From a virus (taxonomy: Duplodnaviria > Caudoviricetes), in IMG/VR virus record IMGVR_UViG_3300048599_000880, positions 1-61,347 of that record: a DNA stretch of 61,347 nt. One strand, given 5' to 3'. Every line of letters starts with the position of its first letter. The first letter of the stretch is position 1. Positions 24,894 through 59,014 of this stretch are shown here, piece by piece. Below the pieces are notes generated by a model. The model searched no databases. It saw only the letters and a program-made list of their open reading frames with translations, and had not been told where the DNA came from. The position numbers and the translations under genes are program-made.

Positions 24894-25169
24894 TTACTGC
24901 TGATCCGCCGGCTTCGCGGCCTCGATGGCGGCGATGATGTCGGCCTTCTTGGTGGCCTCGCCGAGGTCGATGCCCTTCTCGGCCGCCAGGGCCTGTAGCT
25001 CCTTGACGGTCTTCGCTTCGAGGCCATCCGGGGCCGGCTTCGCGGCCTCGATGGGCTTGCCATCCTCGCCAACCAGCACATAGGCGCCGGGATTGGCGTC
25101 GTACTTCGCTTTGTCGATGAGATGCCAGCCGCGCGGGCCGTCGCGCTGGACCTTTACGAGACCGTTCAT
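24894..25169 (-). CDS. HeH/LEM (Rho-N-like) domain protein
   Basis: TVKELQALAAEKGIDL..ATKKADIIAAI motif; AAAGGAG RBS. Confidence 0.75.
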   Translation of the reverse strand: MNGLVKVQRDGPRGWHLIDKAKYDANPGAYVLVGEDGKPIEAAKPAPDGLEAKTVKELQALAAEKGIDLGEATKKADIIAAIEAAKPADQQ

Positions 25170-25185
25170 GGTCGCTCCTTTCGAG

Positions 25186-25512
25186 CTATGGGGCCGTCGA
25201 AACCTTGAGGGCGCCTTCGTCGTTCCAAACTGACGAAGCGTCCTCCTGGTCGGCGGTCGGGATGTTGTCGAGCAACGCCTTCTGATCCGCCGTCGGTACA
25301 TTCGCCGCGAAGTCCGCCTCCGCGATGGTGACGGACAAAGCGCCCTGCGTCGTGAACTGGCGCGGCACTACGTAGGGACCGAAGACCGCGGCCGCCGCGT
25401 TGGTGACGCGCCGACCGATTGCCGGGTTCTCAACCTGGCGGATGTAGCCGGAGCCATCGACGATCGAGGCGGTGATCGTGTGGCCGGCCGGCACGACATG
25501 CAGACTGTTCAT
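25186..25512 (-). CDS. Hypothetical virion protein (possible decoration)
   Basis: Follows the coat gene; GAGGA RBS. Confidence 0.6.
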   Translation of the reverse strand: MNSLHVVPAGHTITASIVDGSGYIRQVENPAIGRRVTNAAAAVFGPYVVPRQFTTQGALSVTIAEADFAANVPTADQKALLDNIPTADQEDASSVWNDEGALKVSTAP

Positions 25513-25578: not shown

Positions 25579-26748
25579 TTAGCCGTGCAGGACGGCGATG
25601 TGGTCCTGCTTGACCGCGCGGAAGCCCCACGCCAGGCGGACGTGGTAGACGACCTGCAGGTACTGCCGGTAGACCGCGATCTCGAACGACAGACCCGAGA
25701 TCGGATCGGTGATGGTGATACGGTCGTCGGCAGCGTCGCCGCCCGGCGGCATGGCCGGCAGGCGGGTGGCCAGCACGATCGCCGAGCGGGCGAACGCAAC
25801 GTTCGGCGTATGGGACGCAACGATCGACATCTCGACCGCATCGGCCAGAGACTGTCTCAGGCCAGGCCCGCCGATGGTGATGTCGGCTTCGACCTCGGTC
25901 GTGCCCGTCACCACGTTGTACTTGTTGGCGTCGTTGGCAAACGTGACCAGGTCGCCGGCCTTGATGCCGGTGGTGTTCACGGTGCCGCCGTCCAGATGGA
26001 TGACCTTGTCGCCGACGGCGTAGCCGCCAGGGTTCAGGTCGACGTCGTACCCGGTGCCGGCACCCGCCACGTGCGGGACGATCGCGTTCGAGTGGCGCAG
26101 GGCAAACTTCATGACGCGATCCGTCATGCCGTTGCGCAACATGTCCTCCCGGCCGGCCTCGTTGACCTTGAAGAGAACGGATTGCTTGCCGCGGAGGTTC
26201 GAGATGGCGTCATGCCCGAGAACGAGCTGCAGATCGCTCGTGGGAGCGCCGTTCTGTTCGAGGATCTTGAGCACACCGGCAAAATCGGTGAAGTCGCCGG
26301 CAGTCCCGAACGGTGCCGTGCCAGCGGTGGCGCCGTAGCCGCGCGAGGCGTTCTTGTAGGCCTCGAGCCAGAGATCATTCTCCATCTCGTTCACCAGGGT
26401 CCGCATGGCCTGGTAGAAGCGGTCGGCCTGGATCGTCGAGAACAGGCCAGAGTTGTTGAGCCCCTGCGTCTCCTCGCCGTTCCAGCGCACCGGAACGTGC
26501 CGGGACTTCGACATCGTCACCTTGACGTTGTCGACCGTGGTATCGCCGGTGTTGGGCGCAGTGACGCCGGGGGTGTTGTCGGCTGCGGCGTGCGCACCGG
26601 TCACCGGTACGATGACTTGCTCACCGATAGCGGCGCGCGCGACACTAGAGGAACGCGAGACAGCCGGGATGAAACCGACCAGCTCGCGGGACACGACATC
26701 CATGGCCTCGAAGAGGTCCGGGATCAGATCAGTCAAAGTGTTGGGCAT
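25579..26748 (-). CDS. Major capsid protein (P22 coat-like)
   Basis: NTLTDLIPDL..AMDVVSRELVG, ITDPISGLSF..AVY and AWG motifs; follows the scaffold gene. Confidence 0.9.
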   Translation of the reverse strand: MPNTLTDLIPDLFEAMDVVSRELVGFIPAVSRSSSVARAAIGEQVIVPVTGAHAAADNTPGVTAPNTGDTTVDNVKVTMSKSRHVPVRWNGEETQGLNNSGLFSTIQADRFYQAMRTLVNEMENDLWLEAYKNASRGYGATAGTAPFGTAGDFTDFAGVLKILEQNGAPTSDLQLVLGHDAISNLRGKQSVLFKVNEAGREDMLRNGMTDRVMKFALRHSNAIVPHVAGAGTGYDVDLNPGGYAVGDKVIHLDGGTVNTTGIKAGDLVTFANDANKYNVVTGTTEVEADITIGGPGLRQSLADAVEMSIVASHTPNVAFARSAIVLATRLPAMPPGGDAADDRITITDPISGLSFEIAVYRQYLQVVYHVRLAWGFRAVKQDHIAVLHG

Positions 26749-26797
26749 CGGATGCTCCAATAGAAACGGCCGCACGCGGCGGCCTGTTGGGTTGAGA

Positions 26798-26846
26798 CAA
26801 TTGGGCCATCCGACCCGGTGCGCCTTCCCTCATCCGAGGTCGGGCG
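26798..26846 (-). promoter_or_regulatory. Structured RNA leader motif (GGAU tetraloop hairpins), copy B, upstream of the coat gene
   Basis: CCTC-GGAT-GAGG, then linker GGCGCACC, then GGGTC-GGAT-GGCCC. Confidence 0.7.
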
Positions 26847-26864
26847 ATTGCATGCTGGAGGGCG

Positions 26865-27626
26865 TCAGTCGACGACCTTGAACCCTTCCTTCATCTTGGC
26901 TTGAGCCGCCGCCGGAGCAAGCGCCTCGAAATCCTTGCGGCTGATGGTCTTGTCGCCATTGCCGCCGCCATTACCGGGCCGCGCACCGGTGCCGCCGCCG
27001 GTACCCCGCAGGATCGATTCCTTGTGCGGGTACTGGTCGACCAGGATCTCCAGCGCCTCGTCGAACTCGGCCGGCTCGCCGTGCTTCACGCGGCTGTAGA
27101 TCTGGTTGCCGTCGGCGCCCTTGGCGACGATCTTGCCGCCGTCGATGCTGAAGTGCTTGCCGAAGTGAGACAGCGCTAGATCGGCCGGGATGGCCAGCTT
27201 GGCCTTGTCGCCGACGATCAGCGAGGAACGCGCGAACGCACCGCCAATCTTCTCGCCGTAGAGGTCGGACTTCAGCTTGTCGCGCTCATCGATGACGGGC
27301 TTGTACTTCTCCTCGACCGAGGCGATGGCCGCGGCCTTCACCTTCTCGACCTCGCCGGCATCCACCAGCTTCTTGTCGTCGAGGTTCTTGACCGTCTCCA
27401 GGGCCTTCAGCGCGGCCGTGGGGTCGGTGATGCCTTCGAAGGTCTTCAGCGCCCCCTCGGCCTTCTCGGCCCGCTCACGGTGGCCCTTGGCCTCGCCATT
27501 GAGGCGGCTGATCGTGGAAAGCGTCCCCGGCGCGTCGAATGCGATCTCCTTGCCGTCGTCGTGGACGTACACGGGCTTGCCATCCTGAACGACCACGCGG
27601 CCGTCAGCGTCGAGCTTCAACTTCAT
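26865..27626 (-). CDS. Capsid scaffolding protein (DUF6651-like)
   Basis: MKLKLD.DG..VVQDGKPVYVHDDGKE, LNGEAKGHRE and YPHKESIL motifs; position between portal and coat. Confidence 0.85.
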   Translation of the reverse strand: MKLKLDADGRVVVQDGKPVYVHDDGKEIAFDAPGTLSTISRLNGEAKGHRERAEKAEGALKTFEGITDPTAALKALETVKNLDDKKLVDAGEVEKVKAAAIASVEEKYKPVIDERDKLKSDLYGEKIGGAFARSSLIVGDKAKLAIPADLALSHFGKHFSIDGGKIVAKGADGNQIYSRVKHGEPAEFDEALEILVDQYPHKESILRGTGGGTGARPGNGGGNGDKTISRKDFEALAPAAAQAKMKEGFKVVD

Positions 27627-27638
27627 CGGTGGTCCTTT

Positions 27639-27701
27639 CGGGCATCCGCCCGGTCAATGGGCGATCCCGCCCGGTGCGCCCTCGCCGATCCCGGCTTAGG
27701 C
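27639..27701 (-). promoter_or_regulatory. Structured RNA leader motif (three GGAU tetraloop hairpins), copy A, upstream of the scaffold gene
   Basis: GCCG-GGAT-CGGC, linker GGCGCACC, GGGCG-GGAT-CGCCC, then CGGGC-GGAT-GCCCG abutting the AAAGGA RBS. Confidence 0.7.
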
Positions 27702-27706
27702 TGATC

Positions 27707-27961
27707 TCAGTTCTCGGCCGGCACCGGCCCCACCGATACAGAGATCGGCGGATGCTGCGTTCCGAGGATGCAGACATGGATCGAAGCGCCGGCATTCAGC
27801 GCCGCAAGCTCGGCAGGCGTCGGGGTCCAGGCCGTCGTCATGCACGGGGTGCCGGGTCCGTTCACGGAGCAGTTGACCTCCTCATCGCGAACCGGAAGCC
27901 CCTCGTAGCCCTGCGAGGCGCCGATGGTGCGAGTGGTGCCTTCAATTCGTCCGCTCAGCAT
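27707..27961 (-). CDS. Hypothetical phage protein
   Basis: GGAG RBS after the portal stop; LPVRD...TTAWTPTPAELAALNAG motif. Confidence 0.65.
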   Translation of the reverse strand: MLSGRIEGTTRTIGASQGYEGLPVRDEEVNCSVNGPGTPCMTTAWTPTPAELAALNAGASIHVCILGTQHPPISVSVGPVPAEN

Positions 27962-27970
27962 CTCGTGCTC

Positions 27971-29437
27971 CTAGACCGCGCCAGTAAGTTCTTCGTCGCC
28001 GGGATCGTCCGGCACCTCCGCCAGGATCTCCGCCATATCGGCTTCCTCGTCGTATTCGGCCGACAGGAAATCCCGTCGCTTAGCCTCGACGATGAGCGCC
28101 TTGCGGCTGATCACATGCCGCTCGTGCATCTTCAGGAGGAAGTCCGGCGCCTTATCGCTCTCCATGTCGATGGAGAAGTCGGTGTAGACCGCGACCTCGG
28201 GCTTGCTGCTGTCGCCGAGCCACAGGCAGGTCAGGCGTAGCGCCTCTTCCAGCGCATCCTTGAGATTGAGGCACCAAGCCTGAATGGCGCTGTTACCCTT
28301 CTGGGCCGCGAATGCCGTCGTCACCACAGTCAGGTTGCCGGTCTGTGCCGTCAGCGGCTGGCGGCCGAGTTCACGAAGCTGCTTTTCGGTGGCCTCGACG
28401 TCCTTGGCCAGGAAGGTCAACGATGCTGCCGAGGGCTCGATGAAGTCCCATTCACCGTGATTGCCGTCTCCAGCGGGTGGCGCAAAGAGCACTGACTTCG
28501 GACCAACTGGCACCATCGCTGGCGTCCCGTCCGCCGTCGTCGGCGGGGTGACACCGTTGCCCGCCAGCATCGGAAAGCAGGCCTGCTCCTTGATGCTCTT
28601 GAGGTTGGTCTCCTGCTGATAGTGCTCGACCTGCAGGAAAGCGGCATCCTGCATCGGCGGCACGAACTGCCAGGAGCCTTCCTTGCGGCGGCCGGTGATG
28701 AACGGCACCACGGCGATGACACCGATGGCGATCGGGCCTTCCTGCACGGCCACCCACTCGACAGTGCCGGCGGCATCCTTCTGCTCTTCCCAAAGGATGA
28801 AGCGCGCCGGCCCGTAGCTGCCATTCGGCAGTTGATCCCGGATCAGCTCCCGGACGCGGTTTATGGTCGTCTCACCGTAGCCGCTGCGCACGGTCTCCGG
28901 CTCGTGGATGCGGACGCTGACGAACTCTTCCTTGCCGCCAATGACGGCGCTGTAGACGGCCAGCATGCGCTTTGCCGGCACATGCACCCAGTACGGCCGT
29001 GCCCCAAGCTTCTGCTCATCGGCAACCGTGGCGCCGGCCGGGACAGGCGGCTTGTCGACGAAGATCCAGTCGACGGCGTCGTTGATGCCCTGAAAGAACA
29101 GATTGGCGGCGAAGACGTGGAGGTGATTGCCCTGGCCGTCGATGTCTTCGATGAGCTCGGTCACCGACTGCGAGGCCTTGCCGTCGACAAGCCCGACCTC
29201 CTTCGCGAAGGGCTTGGCGGCCAGGTTCTCGACGATGTCGCGATAGATGTTCGTGAACTTGGCGTTCCTGCAGCGGTAGTCGTAGTCCGGCTTCGTCTCG
29301 TTCGGGAACTTCGGGAGATACTTCTCGCCCGCCGCCCGCATCGTGGTGGCACCACCCAGGATCGCATCGACCATGGCCCAGAACGGGTGCATGGCCTTCC
29401 AATCGGAGGACGGCTCGTTCGGCTTCAGGTCGGGCAT
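27971..29437 (-). CDS. Portal protein (DUF4055-like)
   Basis: MRAAGEKYLPKFPNE...Y..R and EDIDGQGN motifs. TGATG overlap with terL. Confidence 0.88.
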   Translation of the reverse strand: MPDLKPNEPSSDWKAMHPFWAMVDAILGGATTMRAAGEKYLPKFPNETKPDYDYRCRNAKFTNIYRDIVENLAAKPFAKEVGLVDGKASQSVTELIEDIDGQGNHLHVFAANLFFQGINDAVDWIFVDKPPVPAGATVADEQKLGARPYWVHVPAKRMLAVYSAVIGGKEEFVSVRIHEPETVRSGYGETTINRVRELIRDQLPNGSYGPARFILWEEQKDAAGTVEWVAVQEGPIAIGVIAVVPFITGRRKEGSWQFVPPMQDAAFLQVEHYQQETNLKSIKEQACFPMLAGNGVTPPTTADGTPAMVPVGPKSVLFAPPAGDGNHGEWDFIEPSAASLTFLAKDVEATEKQLRELGRQPLTAQTGNLTVVTTAFAAQKGNSAIQAWCLNLKDALEEALRLTCLWLGDSSKPEVAVYTDFSIDMESDKAPDFLLKMHERHVISRKALIVEAKRRDFLSAEYDEEADMAEILAEVPDDPGDEELTGAV

Positions 29438-30981
29438 CAGCGCGAACTCCCGTAGCCCCCAAACACCGCCTGCCCGCCGCCGCTCTTCAGCAGCCGACCG
29501 AACGCTCCCGATGACGCATCGACCTGGTCCTTGAAGCTGCTCCCTGGGAACAGGCAGAGCTCGTCCAGATAGGCCTCGTTCCAGTCGGCCGAGACCAGAT
29601 AGACGTTGCCGGCCTCGCACTGCGACGAGAACGGTTCGGCTCGTGTGGCCTTATCGCCGGTCTCCGGCTCGGCCTTCACCTTCCAGCCGGCCAGCAGCGA
29701 GACGTAATCCCTCGCCTGGACCTTGCCGGCCTGCCCGGGGTCCTGCGGCAGGCTGATCTCGACATCCTTGCCGTCGATCTCGGCCGTGGCCTTGATCAGC
29801 CGTCTCACTGCGGCGCCCTCGTCCTGCGTCTTCACGACATGACCGACGATGAATGAACCATCCGGCGCCCTACCCAGCTTCACGCCGGCGGTACGAGCGG
29901 CCGTCTGCTTCTTGGTGGCGGCTAGATCCCAGTGTCGGACCCAGATCGTGCCCGCCGGCGCCTGCCGAATGAACTTGCCCGCGAACCACTCCCGCTTGAA
30001 CAGACCGCCCTCGCGAGGCACCGGACGCTGCTGGTACTGGCCGGCATACGCATACGCCGTGGTATCTCGCTTGAGCTTGTCGACCGTGGGCCGCGCGAAG
30101 CGGATCGGGTCGAGAAGGTCCCCCTCGCTTTGACGCGGGTCGGTGAAGCCGATCTCCGTACTGCAGCGCCGCTCGACCTCGAATTCCATGGGCAGGCAGA
30201 GATGCACGTATCCCATGCCCAGCTTCACGATCGTGCCGGAAACGTCATCCTCATGGAGACGCTGCATGATCACGATGATGGCCGACCGCTCCTGGTCGTT
30301 CAGACGGTTGATCGCGCCTTCCCGAAATTTGCGTGTCGTGGCTATGCGCTCGGCAGGGCTCTCCGCCGTCTCCGTCGAGTGCGGATCGTCGATGGTGAGC
30401 CGATCGCCACGCTGCGATGTCAGCGAACCGAAGGCGACACCCTCGCGCGTGCCGGTGTTGCTGTTGGCGAAGCTGGTCTCGCCGGTTCGGGTCAGCACGA
30501 CCTCGGGCCAGAGCGATCGATACCACTCCGAAAGGATCAGATCGCGGCACTTCCGGGTATCGCGCTTGACCGGCCCATCGTTGAAGGCCGTCGTCAGGTA
30601 GCGCATCGACCGAAGATGCGCCTGCGTCCACTCCCAGGCCGGCCAGAGCACGCTCACCAGGAGCGATTTCGACGAACCCGGAGGGACGTTGATCAAGAGC
30701 CGGTTGATCCGGCCTTCCGTCACCGCCTCGAGGTGCGCGCAGATCGCGTCGAGATGCCAGTTCCAGACCAGCGTCGTGCTGGGTTCCAGAACACGCCAGG
30801 CCTCGCGCACGAATCCCGCCAGCGTCTTGCAGCGGGCCCTGATCTTCTCGGCATCCCGAGCGACCCGCTCGCGCTCAGCCTCTGCCTGCCGCCGCGCCTT
30901 CTCCGCCCTGATCAGGCGCATCATCGTCGTCGGATCCGGCAAGCGGACCGAAGATGCGTTCGAGCTTCGAGAGGTCATCAT
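29437..30981 (-). CDS. terL: Terminase large subunit (true start may be ~30924)
   Basis: WHLDAICAHLE, LLINVPPGSSKS, IDDPH, IMQRLHEDD, WDLA and DQVDA motifs. Confidence 0.95.
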   Translation of the reverse strand: MMTSRSSNASSVRLPDPTTMMRLIRAEKARRQAEAERERVARDAEKIRARCKTLAGFVREAWRVLEPSTTLVWNWHLDAICAHLEAVTEGRINRLLINVPPGSSKSLLVSVLWPAWEWTQAHLRSMRYLTTAFNDGPVKRDTRKCRDLILSEWYRSLWPEVVLTRTGETSFANSNTGTREGVAFGSLTSQRGDRLTIDDPHSTETAESPAERIATTRKFREGAINRLNDQERSAIIVIMQRLHEDDVSGTIVKLGMGYVHLCLPMEFEVERRCSTEIGFTDPRQSEGDLLDPIRFARPTVDKLKRDTTAYAYAGQYQQRPVPREGGLFKREWFAGKFIRQAPAGTIWVRHWDLAATKKQTAARTAGVKLGRAPDGSFIVGHVVKTQDEGAAVRRLIKATAEIDGKDVEISLPQDPGQAGKVQARDYVSLLAGWKVKAEPETGDKATRAEPFSSQCEAGNVYLVSADWNEAYLDELCLFPGSSFKDQVDASSGAFGRLLKSGGGQAVFGGYGSSR

Positions 30982-58923: not shown

Positions 58924-58982
58924 ACGATGGTGCCCCCGGTCGGACTCGAACCAACACTTCCGTGAGGAAACCTGATTTTGAG
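58924..58982 (+). repeat. Right att core (59 bp) overlapping the tRNA 3' half
   Basis: Identical to 2692..2750. Confidence 0.97.
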
Positions 58983-59014
58983 TCAGGCGCGTCTACCAAT
59001 TCCGCCACGGGGGC
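58928..59014 (-). tRNA. tRNA-Leu(CAA)
   Basis: GCCCCCG/CGGGGGC acceptor stem plus ACCA; D-loop GGAATTGGTAGAC; anticodon arm CCTGA-CTCAAAA-TCAGG; long variable arm; GTTCGAGTC; 87 nt. Confidence 0.97.

What the first reader, a model, noticed from the sequence alone, without database searches (positions are those of the whole stretch)
26798..27701. Duplicated, covarying GGAU-tetraloop RNA motif in the leaders of the scaffold and coat genes
Seen: on the mRNA (-) strand the scaffold leader reads GCCTAA-GCCG[GGAT]CGGC-GA-GGGCGCACC-GGGCG[GGAT]CGCCC-ATTG-AC-CGGGC[GGAT]GCCCG-AAAGGA-N6-ATG (27639..27701). The coat leader reads CGCCCGA-CCTC[GGAT]GAGG-GA-AGGCGCACC-GGGTC[GGAT]GGCCC-AATTG (26798..26846). 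Five hairpins share the same GGAU loop. The stems differ in sequence but keep pairing (GCCG/CGGC vs CCTC/GAGG), and the linker GGCGCACC is invariant. This pattern indicates selection on RNA structure. The last hairpin abuts the scaffold RBS. Known: P22 scaffolding protein represses its own translation, and CsrA/RsmA binds GGA in hairpin loops. Inference: this is a cis-regulatory RNA that sets scaffold:coat stoichiometry, bound by a phage protein (scaffold, or the HeH/LEM protein at 24894..25169) or a host GGA-binding protein.
Basis: partly seen in the sequence, partly recalled or inferred. Interest (0 to 1): 0.75.

Follow-up and report, generated by a model that had tools for sequence, protein, structure and literature searches.

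The report
GGAU-hairpin leader RNA on head genes
The messages for this prophage's capsid scaffold and coat proteins start with a small array of RNA hairpins that all carry the same four-letter loop, an array kept in many related phages and listed in no RNA database, so it is probably an undescribed control element for how much head protein is made.

Summary
On the (-) strand, three GGAU-loop hairpins precede the scaffold gene (27627-27703) and two precede the coat gene (26778-26847). These are the only two copies in the window.

It is not chance. The same array stands before 78 of 80 related DUF6651 scaffold genes. It shows strong compensatory change: 94.6% of cells paired against 29-51% in slid controls, and 13 of 14 pairs changed on both sides. 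It occurs only on the gene strand. It is present in named phages of E. coli, Pseudomonas, Acinetobacter, Caulobacter and Synechococcus. Rfam has no match, and four of my literature searches found no description.

I read it as a structured translation-initiation region or operator. The last hairpin carries or abuts the Shine-Dalgarno site.

The binding partner is not identified:
- Host CsrA is unlikely as the general partner. It was found in none of three host genomes of relatives and not in the window.
- The HeH protein is not conserved among motif-bearing phages.
- Scaffold autoregulation remains possible but untested.

In the coat leader, hairpin 2 can pair instead with the coat start region, which suggests a switch.

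The scan has noted this motif before on other DNA, with notes from at least 13 other genomes.

The parts
27627..27703 (-). Scaffold-leader element: helix P0 carrying hairpin 1 at its tip, then hairpins 2 and 3
   Evidence: Covariance-model hit of 62.6 bits, E 1.9e-20. Sequence read.
27678..27701 (-). P0 helix (27698-27701 pairs with 27678-27681) enclosing hairpin 1 (27684-27695, loop GGAU at 27688-27691)
   Evidence: Minimum-free-energy fold. P0 is 90% paired across 99 aligned copies, with some changes on both sides.
27659..27672 (-). Hairpin 2, GGGCG-GGAU-CGCCC (loop 27664-27667)
   Evidence: The helix is 98% paired in relatives and all 5 pairs show changes on both sides.
27639..27652 (-). 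Hairpin 3, CGGGC-GGAU-GCCCG (loop 27644-27647), directly abutting the Shine-Dalgarno-like AAGGA (27633-27637)
   Evidence: The helix is 99% paired in relatives. Its position relative to the start codon was tabulated.
26865..27626 (-). Scaffold gene (253 aa, DUF6651, phrog_784/phrog_206)
   Evidence: AlphaFold model with mean pLDDT 82.
26778..26847 (-). Coat-leader element: P0 (26843-26846 with 26821-24), hairpin 1 (26828-26839) and hairpin 2 (26803-26816). There is no third GGAU hairpin.
   Evidence: Covariance-model hit of 39.2 bits, E 3.1e-12. Sequence. Homologous two-hairpin copies lie after the scaffold gene in related loci.
26768..26784 (-). G+C-rich hairpin GGCCGC-CGCGU-GCGGCC followed by GUUUCUAUU, between the element and the coat ribosome-binding site
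   Evidence: Read and present in the fold. Whether it acts as a terminator was not tested.
26742..26762 (-). Coat translation-initiation region (SD GGAG 26755-26758, CAUCCGA 26748-26754, start codon 26746-26748). It is complementary to the 5' strand, loop and 3' flank of hairpin 2.
   Evidence: The minimum-free-energy fold pairs it with 26800-26816 instead of forming hairpin 2. Duplex energy -22.3 kcal/mol, z -2.1 against 200 shuffles.
25579..26748 (-). Coat (major head) gene, phrog_283

Best explanation
This is a conserved, structured 5' leader RNA of phage head genes. It consists of a bulged stem (P0 plus hairpin 1) followed by one or two simple hairpins, each capped by the tetraloop GGAU.

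I read it as a translational operator. The identical loops are recognition points for a trans-acting factor that binds more than one loop at a time. The 3'-most hairpin of the scaffold leader carries the Shine-Dalgarno site (30 of 56 relatives) or directly abuts it (26 of 56, including this window). Occupancy there would therefore compete with the 30S subunit and set scaffold output.

In the coat leader the element lies about 55 nt upstream of the start codon. Here hairpin 2 is mutually exclusive with a helix that buries the coat Shine-Dalgarno site and start codon, so the same factor could open or close coat translation.

Shown: the structure, its conservation, its strand and its position.

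Inferred: that a factor binds the loops, and the direction of the effect.

The factor is not identified. My ranking is: a phage protein inherited with the head module (free scaffold protein first), then the ribosome itself, then host CsrA in hosts that have it.
For: Conservation:
- 78 of 80 loci fetched with the scaffold alignment have the element directly before the scaffold start at E <= 0.01 (65 of 67, 13 of 13). L046 and L081 lack it, and L103 is weak.

Covariation on a plain MAFFT alignment of 56 distinct leaders:
- 94.6% of cells are paired, against 29-51% when the partners are slid.
- 13 of 14 pairs have changes on both sides, in 126 cells.
- 0 of 500 shuffles reach this.
- RNAalifold finds the same three hairpins on its own.

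Loops:
- GGAU in 49, 55 and 55 of 56 leaders for hairpins 1, 2 and 3. The base after the loop is G in 46 to 50 of 56, depending on the hairpin.

Strand and place:
- All 92 hits at E <= 0.01 in 567 kb searched on both strands are on the gene strand.
- 91 of them lie at the scaffold leader or just after the scaffold stop codon. The exception is a 15.5-bit hit inside L062.
- G-U pairs are frequent: 15 and 25 of 56 at two positions. These would be A-C mismatches on the other strand.

Whole-genome scans of five named phages put strong hits only at the scaffold leader (5 of 5) and the coat leader (DMCA, Ssp-JY42).

Position at the ribosome-binding site:
- In 30 of 56 leaders the hairpin 3 loop ends 4-8 nt before the start codon with nothing else in between.
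- In 26 of 56 a purine-rich stretch follows the hairpin directly.

More distant relatives keep tandem hairpins that share one loop within a phage, but the loop differs between phages: AGUAA x3 in L005/L025, AGGA x2 in L013/L014, GUGAU x2 in L028, GGAA in DMCA and L008. This fits a partner whose specificity can change.

Switch in the coat leader. In 10 of 28 coat leaders a hairpin has a downstream partner at z < -2.
Against: - No binding or expression data exist here. No RNA run was listed for this DNA.
- No phage protein tracks the motif:
  - The coat family differs in AUS531phi and AM106, yet the scaffold-leader motif is kept.
  - L028 has a GGAU element before its coat gene but GUGAU hairpins before a scaffold of a different N-terminal type.
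  - L005 keeps the same scaffold N-terminus but has AGUAA loops.
- The scaffold model shows no recognisable RNA-binding fold. Foldseek against the PDB gave no match at E <= 0.001.
- Several of the variant loops (AGGA, GUGAU), and in part GGAU itself, are complementary to the 16S rRNA 3' tail (from recalled knowledge). The ribosome alone might therefore be the partner.
- The alternative helix in the coat leader is significant in only 10 of 28 leaders, and a broader duplex test gave mean z of -0.6.
- The sequences are related, so shuffle controls overstate significance.
Confidence: 0.55

Rival explanations
1. The element needs no dedicated protein. It is a special ribosome-binding region. The hairpins display short Shine-Dalgarno-like sequences in accessible loops as docking or standby sites for 30S subunits, possibly helped by protein S1. 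The structured 5' end also protects the message. Together these give the very high output needed for scaffold and coat.
For: - In 30 of 56 leaders the hairpin 3 loop is the only Shine-Dalgarno-like element at the right distance from the start codon.
- If the hairpin is opened, the scaffold start regions pair with the anti-Shine-Dalgarno tail at about -5 kcal/mol. This is no worse than other ORFs of the same loci, at -3.9 (with crude start calls).
- The element occurs in phages of very different hosts: E. coli, Pseudomonas, Acinetobacter, Caulobacter, Synechococcus, and prophages in Methylobacterium and Kaistia. This fits a universal partner.
- The variant loops AGGA and GUGAU are complementary to the 16S 3' tail (recalled).
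- Precedent: the rpsA leader has helices H1-H3 with conserved GG in loops L1 and L2 and lacks a canonical Shine-Dalgarno site, yet it is translated efficiently (passages read in PMC3616713, PMC4408793, PMC10931766).
Against: - Near-invariance of the fourth loop base U (GGAU in 159 of 168 loops) is not what pairing with the anti-Shine-Dalgarno sequence would select. GGAG would pair better.
- A tetraloop on a 5-bp G+C-rich stem can offer at most 3-4 bases.
- AGUAA loops (L005) and the concerted change of all loops within a phage fit a changeable protein better than an invariant rRNA.
- The coat-leader copy lies about 40-85 nt from the start codon, which is far for a docking site.
Confidence: 0.25
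2. The hairpins are binding sites for the host global regulator CsrA/RsmA. CsrA would repress scaffold translation by covering the loop at the Shine-Dalgarno site, tying head-protein synthesis to host physiology.
For: - The loop plus the next base usually reads GGAUG. This is the core of the CsrA SELEX consensus RUACARGGAUGU, which is bound best with GGA in a hairpin loop (passage read in PMC4347634).
- There are several sites 20-24 nt apart, the last at the Shine-Dalgarno site. From recall, this is the layout of known CsrA-repressed leaders.
- Many motif-bearing phages infect hosts that have CsrA or RsmA: E. coli, Pseudomonas, Acinetobacter (that these hosts have CsrA is recalled, apart from the E. 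coli control).
Against: - CsrA (PF02599) was found in 0 of 3 host genomes holding related prophages: Methylobacterium isbiliense and Kaistia soli, both with GGAU loops, and a Rhodoferax MAG with variant loops. The same search found it in the E. coli, B. subtilis and Thermotoga controls.
- There is none in the window.
- The element is kept in phages of Caulobacter and Synechococcus. The Synechococcus elongatus control has no match above the family cut-off.
- The ACA part of the consensus, described as 100% conserved in SELEX, is absent. The bases 5' of GGA are stem bases, and the loop has 4 nt rather than the usual 5-7.
- The host of this window is unknown.
- CsrA does exist in some Alphaproteobacteria (2 of 3 genomes), so absence cannot be assumed for this host.
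Confidence: 0.1
3. The array is a processing or decay signal rather than a translational one. The hairpins would mark or block RNase cleavage, or work together with the terminator that often precedes them, so that stable scaffold and coat sub-transcripts accumulate from the long late operon.
For: - 51 of 65 distinct scaffold-leader copies have a T-run, the tail of a terminator-type hairpin, within 30 nt 5' of the element. So do 9 of 24 coat-leader copies (one coat-leader copy, L036, was miscounted among the 65 by my filter). HK639 has this terminator annotated.
- The window's coat leader has a G+C-rich hairpin with a U-rich tail after the element.
Against: - The window's scaffold element has no terminator before it. 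The upstream ORF stops 4 nt before the 5' end of the model hit, 11 nt before hairpin 1.
- An invariant loop sequence on covarying stems is not needed for a simple protective hairpin.
- The constant placement at the ribosome-binding site points to initiation.
- No 5'-end or RNA-seq data were available.
Confidence: 0.07
4. It is a DNA-level repeat, such as a small mobile or REP-like element or a protein-binding DNA site, and not an RNA.
For: There are two similar copies about 850 bp apart.
Against: - There are only two copies in 61 kb, both in the same orientation and both in gene leaders.
- In relatives the element is always on the gene strand and at the same two places.
- Stems covary while loops stay fixed, and G-U pairs are frequent. 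This fits single-stranded RNA and does not fit duplex DNA.
Confidence: 0.01

Closest known systems
CsrA/RsmA-repressed mRNA leaders (and CsrA-sequestering sRNAs)
   Same: GGA is presented in hairpin loops. The loop plus the next base matches the GGAUG core of the SELEX consensus (PMC4347634). There are several sites about 20-24 nt apart, the last one at the Shine-Dalgarno site.
   Different: - The loop is a 4-nt tetraloop without the ACA/ANGGA context.
- The element is kept in phages whose hosts lack CsrA (0 of 3 hosts).
- No Rfam CsrB/Rsm-type family matches.
- The whole array, with P0, fixed order and fixed spacing, is conserved as one unit.
rpsA (ribosomal protein S1) leader of Gammaproteobacteria
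   Same: Successive hairpins stand before the start codon, with conserved GG in the loops of the first two. There is no canonical Shine-Dalgarno site, yet translation is efficient and under autogenous control (PMC3616713, PMC4408793, PMC10931766).
   Different: - There is no sequence or model match.
- The rpsA linkers are AU-rich S1 sites. Here the first linker is paired (P0), and in this window the linkers are G+C-rich.
- The element is found in phages of several phyla, not only in Gammaproteobacteria.
Translational operator hairpins of phages (MS2/Q-beta/PP7 coat-protein operators, T4 RegA and gp32 sites). Recalled, not tested here.
   Same: A structural or assembly protein, or a dedicated repressor, binds a hairpin at a ribosome-binding site. 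Loop identity defines specificity and differs between related phages.
   Different: Those operators are single hairpins in RNA phages or T4. Here there is an array of two or three identical loops in the late operon of temperate tailed dsDNA phages, and no binding protein is known.
Autoregulation of P22 scaffolding protein synthesis (recalled; no paper read)
   Same: The same gene position (portal, scaffold, coat) and the same logical need: free scaffold limits its own synthesis.
   Different: In P22 the scaffold gene starts 13 nt after the portal gene (3879/3893), so there is no comparable leader. The P22 scaffold belongs to a different family from DUF6651.
TwoAYGGAY RNA motif (Rfam; name and description recalled)
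   Same: Two hairpins whose loops share a GGA-containing sequence, with unknown function.
   Different: Those loops have 6 nt. cmscan at E <= 10 over the leaders, and at E <= 5 over 10 related loci, gave no such hit.

Membership tests
Any Rfam 15 family | Covariance-model match at or near the gathering score | tested here: not met
   - Whole window at gathering threshold: only a tRNA.
- Positions 26500-28000 at E <= 10: three unrelated weak hits elsewhere in that stretch.
- Ten related loci (57 kb) at E <= 5: nothing on the element on its own strand. One 22.9-bit mir-432 hit (gathering score 70) on the opposite strand overlaps L003's coat-leader copy.
CsrA/RsmA target leader | GGA in hairpin loops, several sites, one overlapping the Shine-Dalgarno site | tested here: met
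CsrA/RsmA target leader | A(N)GGA / ACA-GGA sequence context of high-affinity sites | tested here: not met
   The bases 5' of GGA are variable stem bases and the loop is 4 nt. Consensus taken from PMC4347634.
CsrA/RsmA target leader | A CsrA-family protein is present in the host or phage | tested here: not met
   PF02599 was found in 0 of 3 host genomes of related prophages, with positive controls, and in 0 of 1 for the window. The window's own host is unknown, so for this phage the test is indirect.
CsrA/RsmA target leader | Demonstrated binding and regulation by CsrA | not testable with these tools
   Needs EMSA, CLIP or a reporter in a csrA mutant.
rpsA-type S1 leader | Homology to the gammaproteobacterial rpsA leader, located before rpsA, with AU-rich linkers | tested here: not met
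   No Rfam hit. The element lies before phage scaffold and coat genes. The linkers in the window are G+C-rich.
Intrinsic terminator | G+C-rich hairpin directly followed by a U-run | tested here: not met
   None of the five GGAU hairpins is followed by a U-run. Separate terminator-type hairpins stand 5' of the element in 51 of 65 relatives.
Dispersed intergenic repeat (REP/MITE/PATE-like) | Many copies, on both strands, not tied to one gene | tested here: not met
   Two copies in the window. In relatives the element lies only before the scaffold and coat genes, always on the gene strand.
Protein-binding translational operator (general kind) | Conserved structure at the ribosome-binding site, with invariant loop and covarying stem | tested here: met
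Protein-binding translational operator (general kind) | An identified cognate RNA-binding protein | tested here: inconclusive
   - The HeH-type protein is not conserved: none of the four other named phages matched. Only the window (weak Rho_N) and AM106 (Ish1) matched.
- The scaffold model has no recognisable RNA-binding fold.
- No protein tracks the motif across mosaic relatives.

The most novel reading that the evidence does not exclude
This would be an assembly-coupled translational switch shared by a large group of tailed phages. Free scaffold protein, or another head-module protein, binds the GGAU loops. On its own leader it covers the hairpin at the ribosome-binding site and shuts off scaffold synthesis. 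On the coat leader it holds hairpin 2 closed. That prevents the alternative helix that buries the coat Shine-Dalgarno site and start codon, so coat is translated only while scaffold is available. Changes of loop sequence between phage lineages (GGAU, GGAA, AGUAA, AGGA, GUGAU) would then be changes of operator-repressor specificity.
Probability: 0.2. Interest if true: 0.85.

Novelty: new variant of a known kind. Interest (0 to 1): 0.65.

Why it matters
How tailed phages set the amounts of scaffold and coat protein is known mechanistically for almost no phage. P22 scaffold autoregulation has been known for decades, but as far as I recall no RNA operator has been defined for it.

This element is a clearly delimited, covarying RNA of about 75 nt. 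It sits at that control point in a scaffold-gene family for which a capped scan of one viral collection confirmed 461 relatives. All but 2 of the 80 loci I examined carry the element. It also occurs in cultivable phages of laboratory hosts: E. coli HK639 and Caulobacter DMCA. The question therefore becomes directly testable.

The element is also a candidate new RNA family for Rfam. If the loops are protein-specific, it could serve as a set of orthogonal operator-repressor pairs.

Tried and rejected
- **RNA evidence.** The look-up of sequencing runs listed no RNA holder for this DNA.
- **Scaffold as an RNA-binding protein.** The AlphaFold model searched by Foldseek against the PDB gave no match at E <= 0.001. 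This neither supports nor excludes binding.
- **Broad test for long-range pairing in coat leaders.** RNAduplex of the whole element against the start region gave mean z of -0.6, with only 3 of 19 leaders below -2. Nine leaders were dropped because my hairpin finder failed on them.
- **Longest exact complement test (28 leaders).** 14 of 28 had a complement of 7 nt or more. 13 of 28 had one of 6 nt or more that overlapped a loop. Fisher's combined p was 6e-5, without correction for relatedness.
- **Focused hairpin test.** 10 of 28 leaders had z < -2. I therefore keep the switch only as suggestive.
- **Shine-Dalgarno strength comparison.** This did not discriminate between the explanations.
- **Class-level genome scan with the model.** 151 alphaproteobacterial genomes were scanned, but only 31 candidates per genome were scored. 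It re-found the Methylobacterium prophage. Three further hits (E 1e-7 to 8e-6) are, by eye, not followed by a scaffold-type start and do not look like the element. I do not count them. Two of those three genomes do have CsrA.
- **Megablast of L054 against E. coli genomes.** No match. The HK639 leader matched 14 of 5426 genomes.
- **P22.** It has no comparable leader.
- **A 16S rRNA mimic.** I rejected the idea that the gamma-type hairpin 3 mimics the 16S 3' end, because that stem sequence covaries freely in other phages.
- **Literature.** Searches found nothing on this motif. The HK639 search was seen as a listing only. Supplements are closed, so published CsrA CLIP tables could not be checked. 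Skorski 2006 is not held.
Full report
**What is there**

Read on the (-) strand, the window has the gene order large terminase (29437-30981), portal (27971-29620), an 84-aa ORF (27707-27961), a DUF6651/phrog_784 scaffold gene (26865-27626) and a phrog_283 major head gene (25579-26748). The record is an IMG/VR provirus of 61,347 bases and 64% G+C.

The scaffold leader holds three hairpins with the loop GGAU: 27684-27695, 27659-27672 and 27639-27652. The last one abuts AAAGGA, six bases and the ATG. The coat leader holds two: 26828-26839 and 26803-26816. The two copies share the loops and the linker GGCGCACC, but their stems differ by compensating changes.

**More than chance**

- The window has 25 GGAT-loop hairpins on both strands together. 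Five of them fall in about 112 nt of leader. The other 20 predict about 0.02 there.
- The 28-position pattern spanning two loops occurs twice in the record and never when read backwards.
- A covariance model built from relatives finds these two sites at 62.6 and 39.2 bits. Nothing else in the window scores above 12.9 bits with filters off.

**Conservation and covariation**

Coat relatives first showed the two-hairpin element before the coat genes of prophages in Methylobacterium isbiliense and Kaistia soli and in three viral contigs. A scaffold alignment (A1) then retrieved 80 viral loci; the capped scan had confirmed 461 relatives among 586 pattern matches. Almost all of the 80 leaders show three GGAU hairpins.

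On a plain MAFFT alignment of 56 distinct leaders:
- The three helices are 94.6% paired, against 29-51% when the partners are slid by 1-3 columns.
- 13 of 14 pairs have changes on both sides, in 126 cells.
- None of 500 shuffles reaches this.

RNAalifold predicts the same three hairpins independently.

With the model R1:
- 78 of 80 scaffold loci have a hit directly before the scaffold start (65 of 67, 13 of 13). L046 and L081 lack one, and L103 is weak.
- All 92 hits at E <= 0.01 in 567 kb searched on both strands are on the gene strand.
- All but one weak hit lie either at the scaffold leader or just after the scaffold stop codon.
- Frequent G-U pairs confirm that the structure belongs to the sense-strand RNA.
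- About a quarter of the scaffold loci (19 of 80 by my count) also have the two-hairpin copy before the next gene.
- Among more distant coat relatives the element is mostly missing. Only 3 of 27 viral coat loci searched have a scaffold-leader hit.

**Named phages**

The scaffold family occurs in 85 GenBank phage records. The element is present before the scaffold gene of E. coli phage HK639, Pseudomonas AUS531phi, Acinetobacter AM106, Caulobacter DMCA (mostly GGAA loops) and Synechococcus Ssp-JY42. In DMCA and Ssp-JY42 it is also present before the coat gene. Whole-genome scans of these five give no other strong hit. The HK639 leader is found in 14 of 5426 complete E. coli genomes by megablast.

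**Anatomy**

- **Loops.** GGAU in 49, 55 and 55 of 56 leaders. The following base is G in 46 to 50 of 56, depending on the hairpin, so the loop and its closing base usually read GGAUG.
- **Linker.** The "invariant linker" is probably paired. A GCC-containing stretch 5' of hairpin 1 pairs with the GGC of the linker (helix P0). P0 is 90% paired in 99 model-aligned copies, and the model itself did not impose this helix. It shows some compensating changes, namely C-G to U-A or G-C, and a swapped GGC/GCC in L053. The fold of the window's own leader shows P0 as well.
- **Two classes.**
  - In 30 of 56 leaders, the loop of hairpin 3 ends 4-8 nt before the start codon and is the only Shine-Dalgarno-like element.
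  - In 26 of 56, including this window, a purine-rich Shine-Dalgarno stretch follows the hairpin directly.
- **Upstream terminator.** 51 of 65 distinct scaffold-leader copies are preceded within 30 nt by the T-run of a terminator-type hairpin (one coat-leader copy, L036, was miscounted among the 65 by my filter). HK639 has this terminator annotated. This window has none there.
- **Variant loops.** More distant relatives keep tandem hairpins with one shared loop per phage, but a different loop: AGUAA x3 (L005/L025), AGGA x2 (L013/L014), GUGAU x2 (L028), GGAA (DMCA, L008).

**Who reads the loops?**

*CsrA.* The loop matches the core of the CsrA SELEX consensus, which is bound best in hairpin loops (PMC4347634, passages). 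Against CsrA as the general partner:
- The ACA context is missing.
- PF02599 was found in 0 of 3 host genomes with related prophages, while the E. coli, B. subtilis and Thermotoga controls were positive.
- It is absent from the window.
- CsrA is not absent from all Alphaproteobacteria (2 of 3 genomes), and this window's host is unknown. The argument therefore rests on the relatives.

*HeH/LEM protein.* A domain of that type after the coat gene matched in the window (Pfam Rho_N, 23.8 bits, just below its cut-off) and in AM106 (Ish1 above its cut-off, HeH below it). None of the four other named phages matched.

*Scaffold protein.* The evidence is mixed.
- The motif travels with the DUF6651 scaffold gene whatever the coat family (AUS531phi, AM106). 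This could equally be simple linkage.
- L028 has a GGAU element before its coat gene but GUGAU hairpins before a scaffold of another N-terminal type.
- L005 keeps the scaffold N-terminus but has AGUAA loops.
- The scaffold model has mean pLDDT 82. It shows a small N-terminal beta unit, long helices, an alpha/beta domain and a C-terminal helical unit. It has no Foldseek match at E <= 0.001.

*P22.* It has no comparable leader, so its autoregulation is only an analogy.

*The ribosome alone.* This is a serious rival. In class A the loop must act as the Shine-Dalgarno site. The rpsA leader is a precedent for hairpins with conserved GG loops giving efficient, controllable initiation without a canonical Shine-Dalgarno site. 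The near-invariant U in the loop, and the concerted loop changes between lineages, argue for a protein.

**A possible switch in the coat leader**

The minimum-free-energy fold of the window's coat leader does not form hairpin 2. Instead it pairs 26800-26816 (the 5' strand, the loop and the 3' flank of hairpin 2) with the coat start region, 26742-26762, which holds part of GGAG, CAUCCGA and the start codon. This duplex has an energy of -22.3 kcal/mol and z of -2.1.

Related coat leaders often carry an exact complement of loop plus 3' stem further downstream: 9-11 nt in L003, L036, L069 and L114. In L069 and L114 it ends right at the start codon. However, only 10 of 28 leaders reach z < -2, several have nothing, and a broader test was null. 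I report this as suggestive only.

**Comparison with what is known, and novelty**

- No Rfam 15 family matches.
- Four full-text searches found no description.
- The element works like a protein- or ribosome-read translational operator. It resembles CsrA-target leaders and the rpsA leader, but it fails the membership tests for both.
- It is best called a new RNA family of a known kind.
- Earlier notes of this scan describe the same array on at least 13 other genomes. These include follow-ups on Rac-like E. coli prophages and a related single-hairpin code on four head genes of a cyanophage. I did not test those claims beyond what is stated here.

**Verdict**

The binding partner and the stoichiometry claim are untested, and two of the proposed partners (the HeH protein, and host CsrA as a general factor) are unlikely.

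Noticed in passing
window 26768-26784 (-): A G+C-rich hairpin, GGCCGC-CGCGU-GCGGCC, followed by GUUUCUAUU, lies between the coat-leader element and the coat ribosome-binding site. Related coat leaders have a third hairpin without a GGAU loop at the same place, for example GCGC-loop-GCGC in L006, L028, L037, L073 and L116.
   Followed up: partly
L005/L025 (about 25-80 nt before scaffold start), L013/L014, L028: Distant scaffold leaders have tandem hairpins with a different shared loop per phage: AGUAA x3, AGGA x2 and GUGAU x2. L028 combines GUGAU hairpins before its scaffold gene with a GGAU-type element before its coat gene.
   Followed up: partly
coat leaders of L003, L028, L036, L069, L114, L118, L119 and window 26748-26754: A (C)CAUCC stretch, often extended to a 7-11 nt exact complement of a GGAU loop plus its 3' stem, lies between the element and the coat start. 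In some leaders it ends right at the start codon.
   Followed up: partly
window 27971-29620 and 29437-30981 (-): The longest portal ORF (GTG start) overlaps the end of the large-terminase ORF by 184 nt in the mechanical ORF list. The real portal start is probably further downstream.
   Followed up: no
window 24894-25301 and 25186-25512 (-): Two overlapping ORFs lie after the coat gene. The 135-aa one ends in a Rho_N/HeH-like domain (Pfam 23.8 bits, just under its cut-off; PHROG hits). A similar C-terminal Ish1/HeH domain follows the coat gene in Acinetobacter phage AM106, but not in four other motif-bearing phages.
   Followed up: partly
window 58931-59014 (-): A tRNA gene near the right end of the provirus record (59.1 bits). 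It may be the integration site.
   Followed up: no
scaffold proteins, alignment A3: The first 31 residues or so of the scaffold (MKLKLD...GKPVY...DGKE.AFD) are among the best-conserved stretches of the protein (invariant M1, P18, V19, G25, D31). They form a small beta unit in the model. Its role is unknown.
   Followed up: partly
G053, G061 (unnamed alphaproteobacterial genomes): CsrA (PF02599) is present above the family cut-off in 2 of 3 alphaproteobacterial genomes checked. The family is therefore not absent from that class.
   Followed up: no
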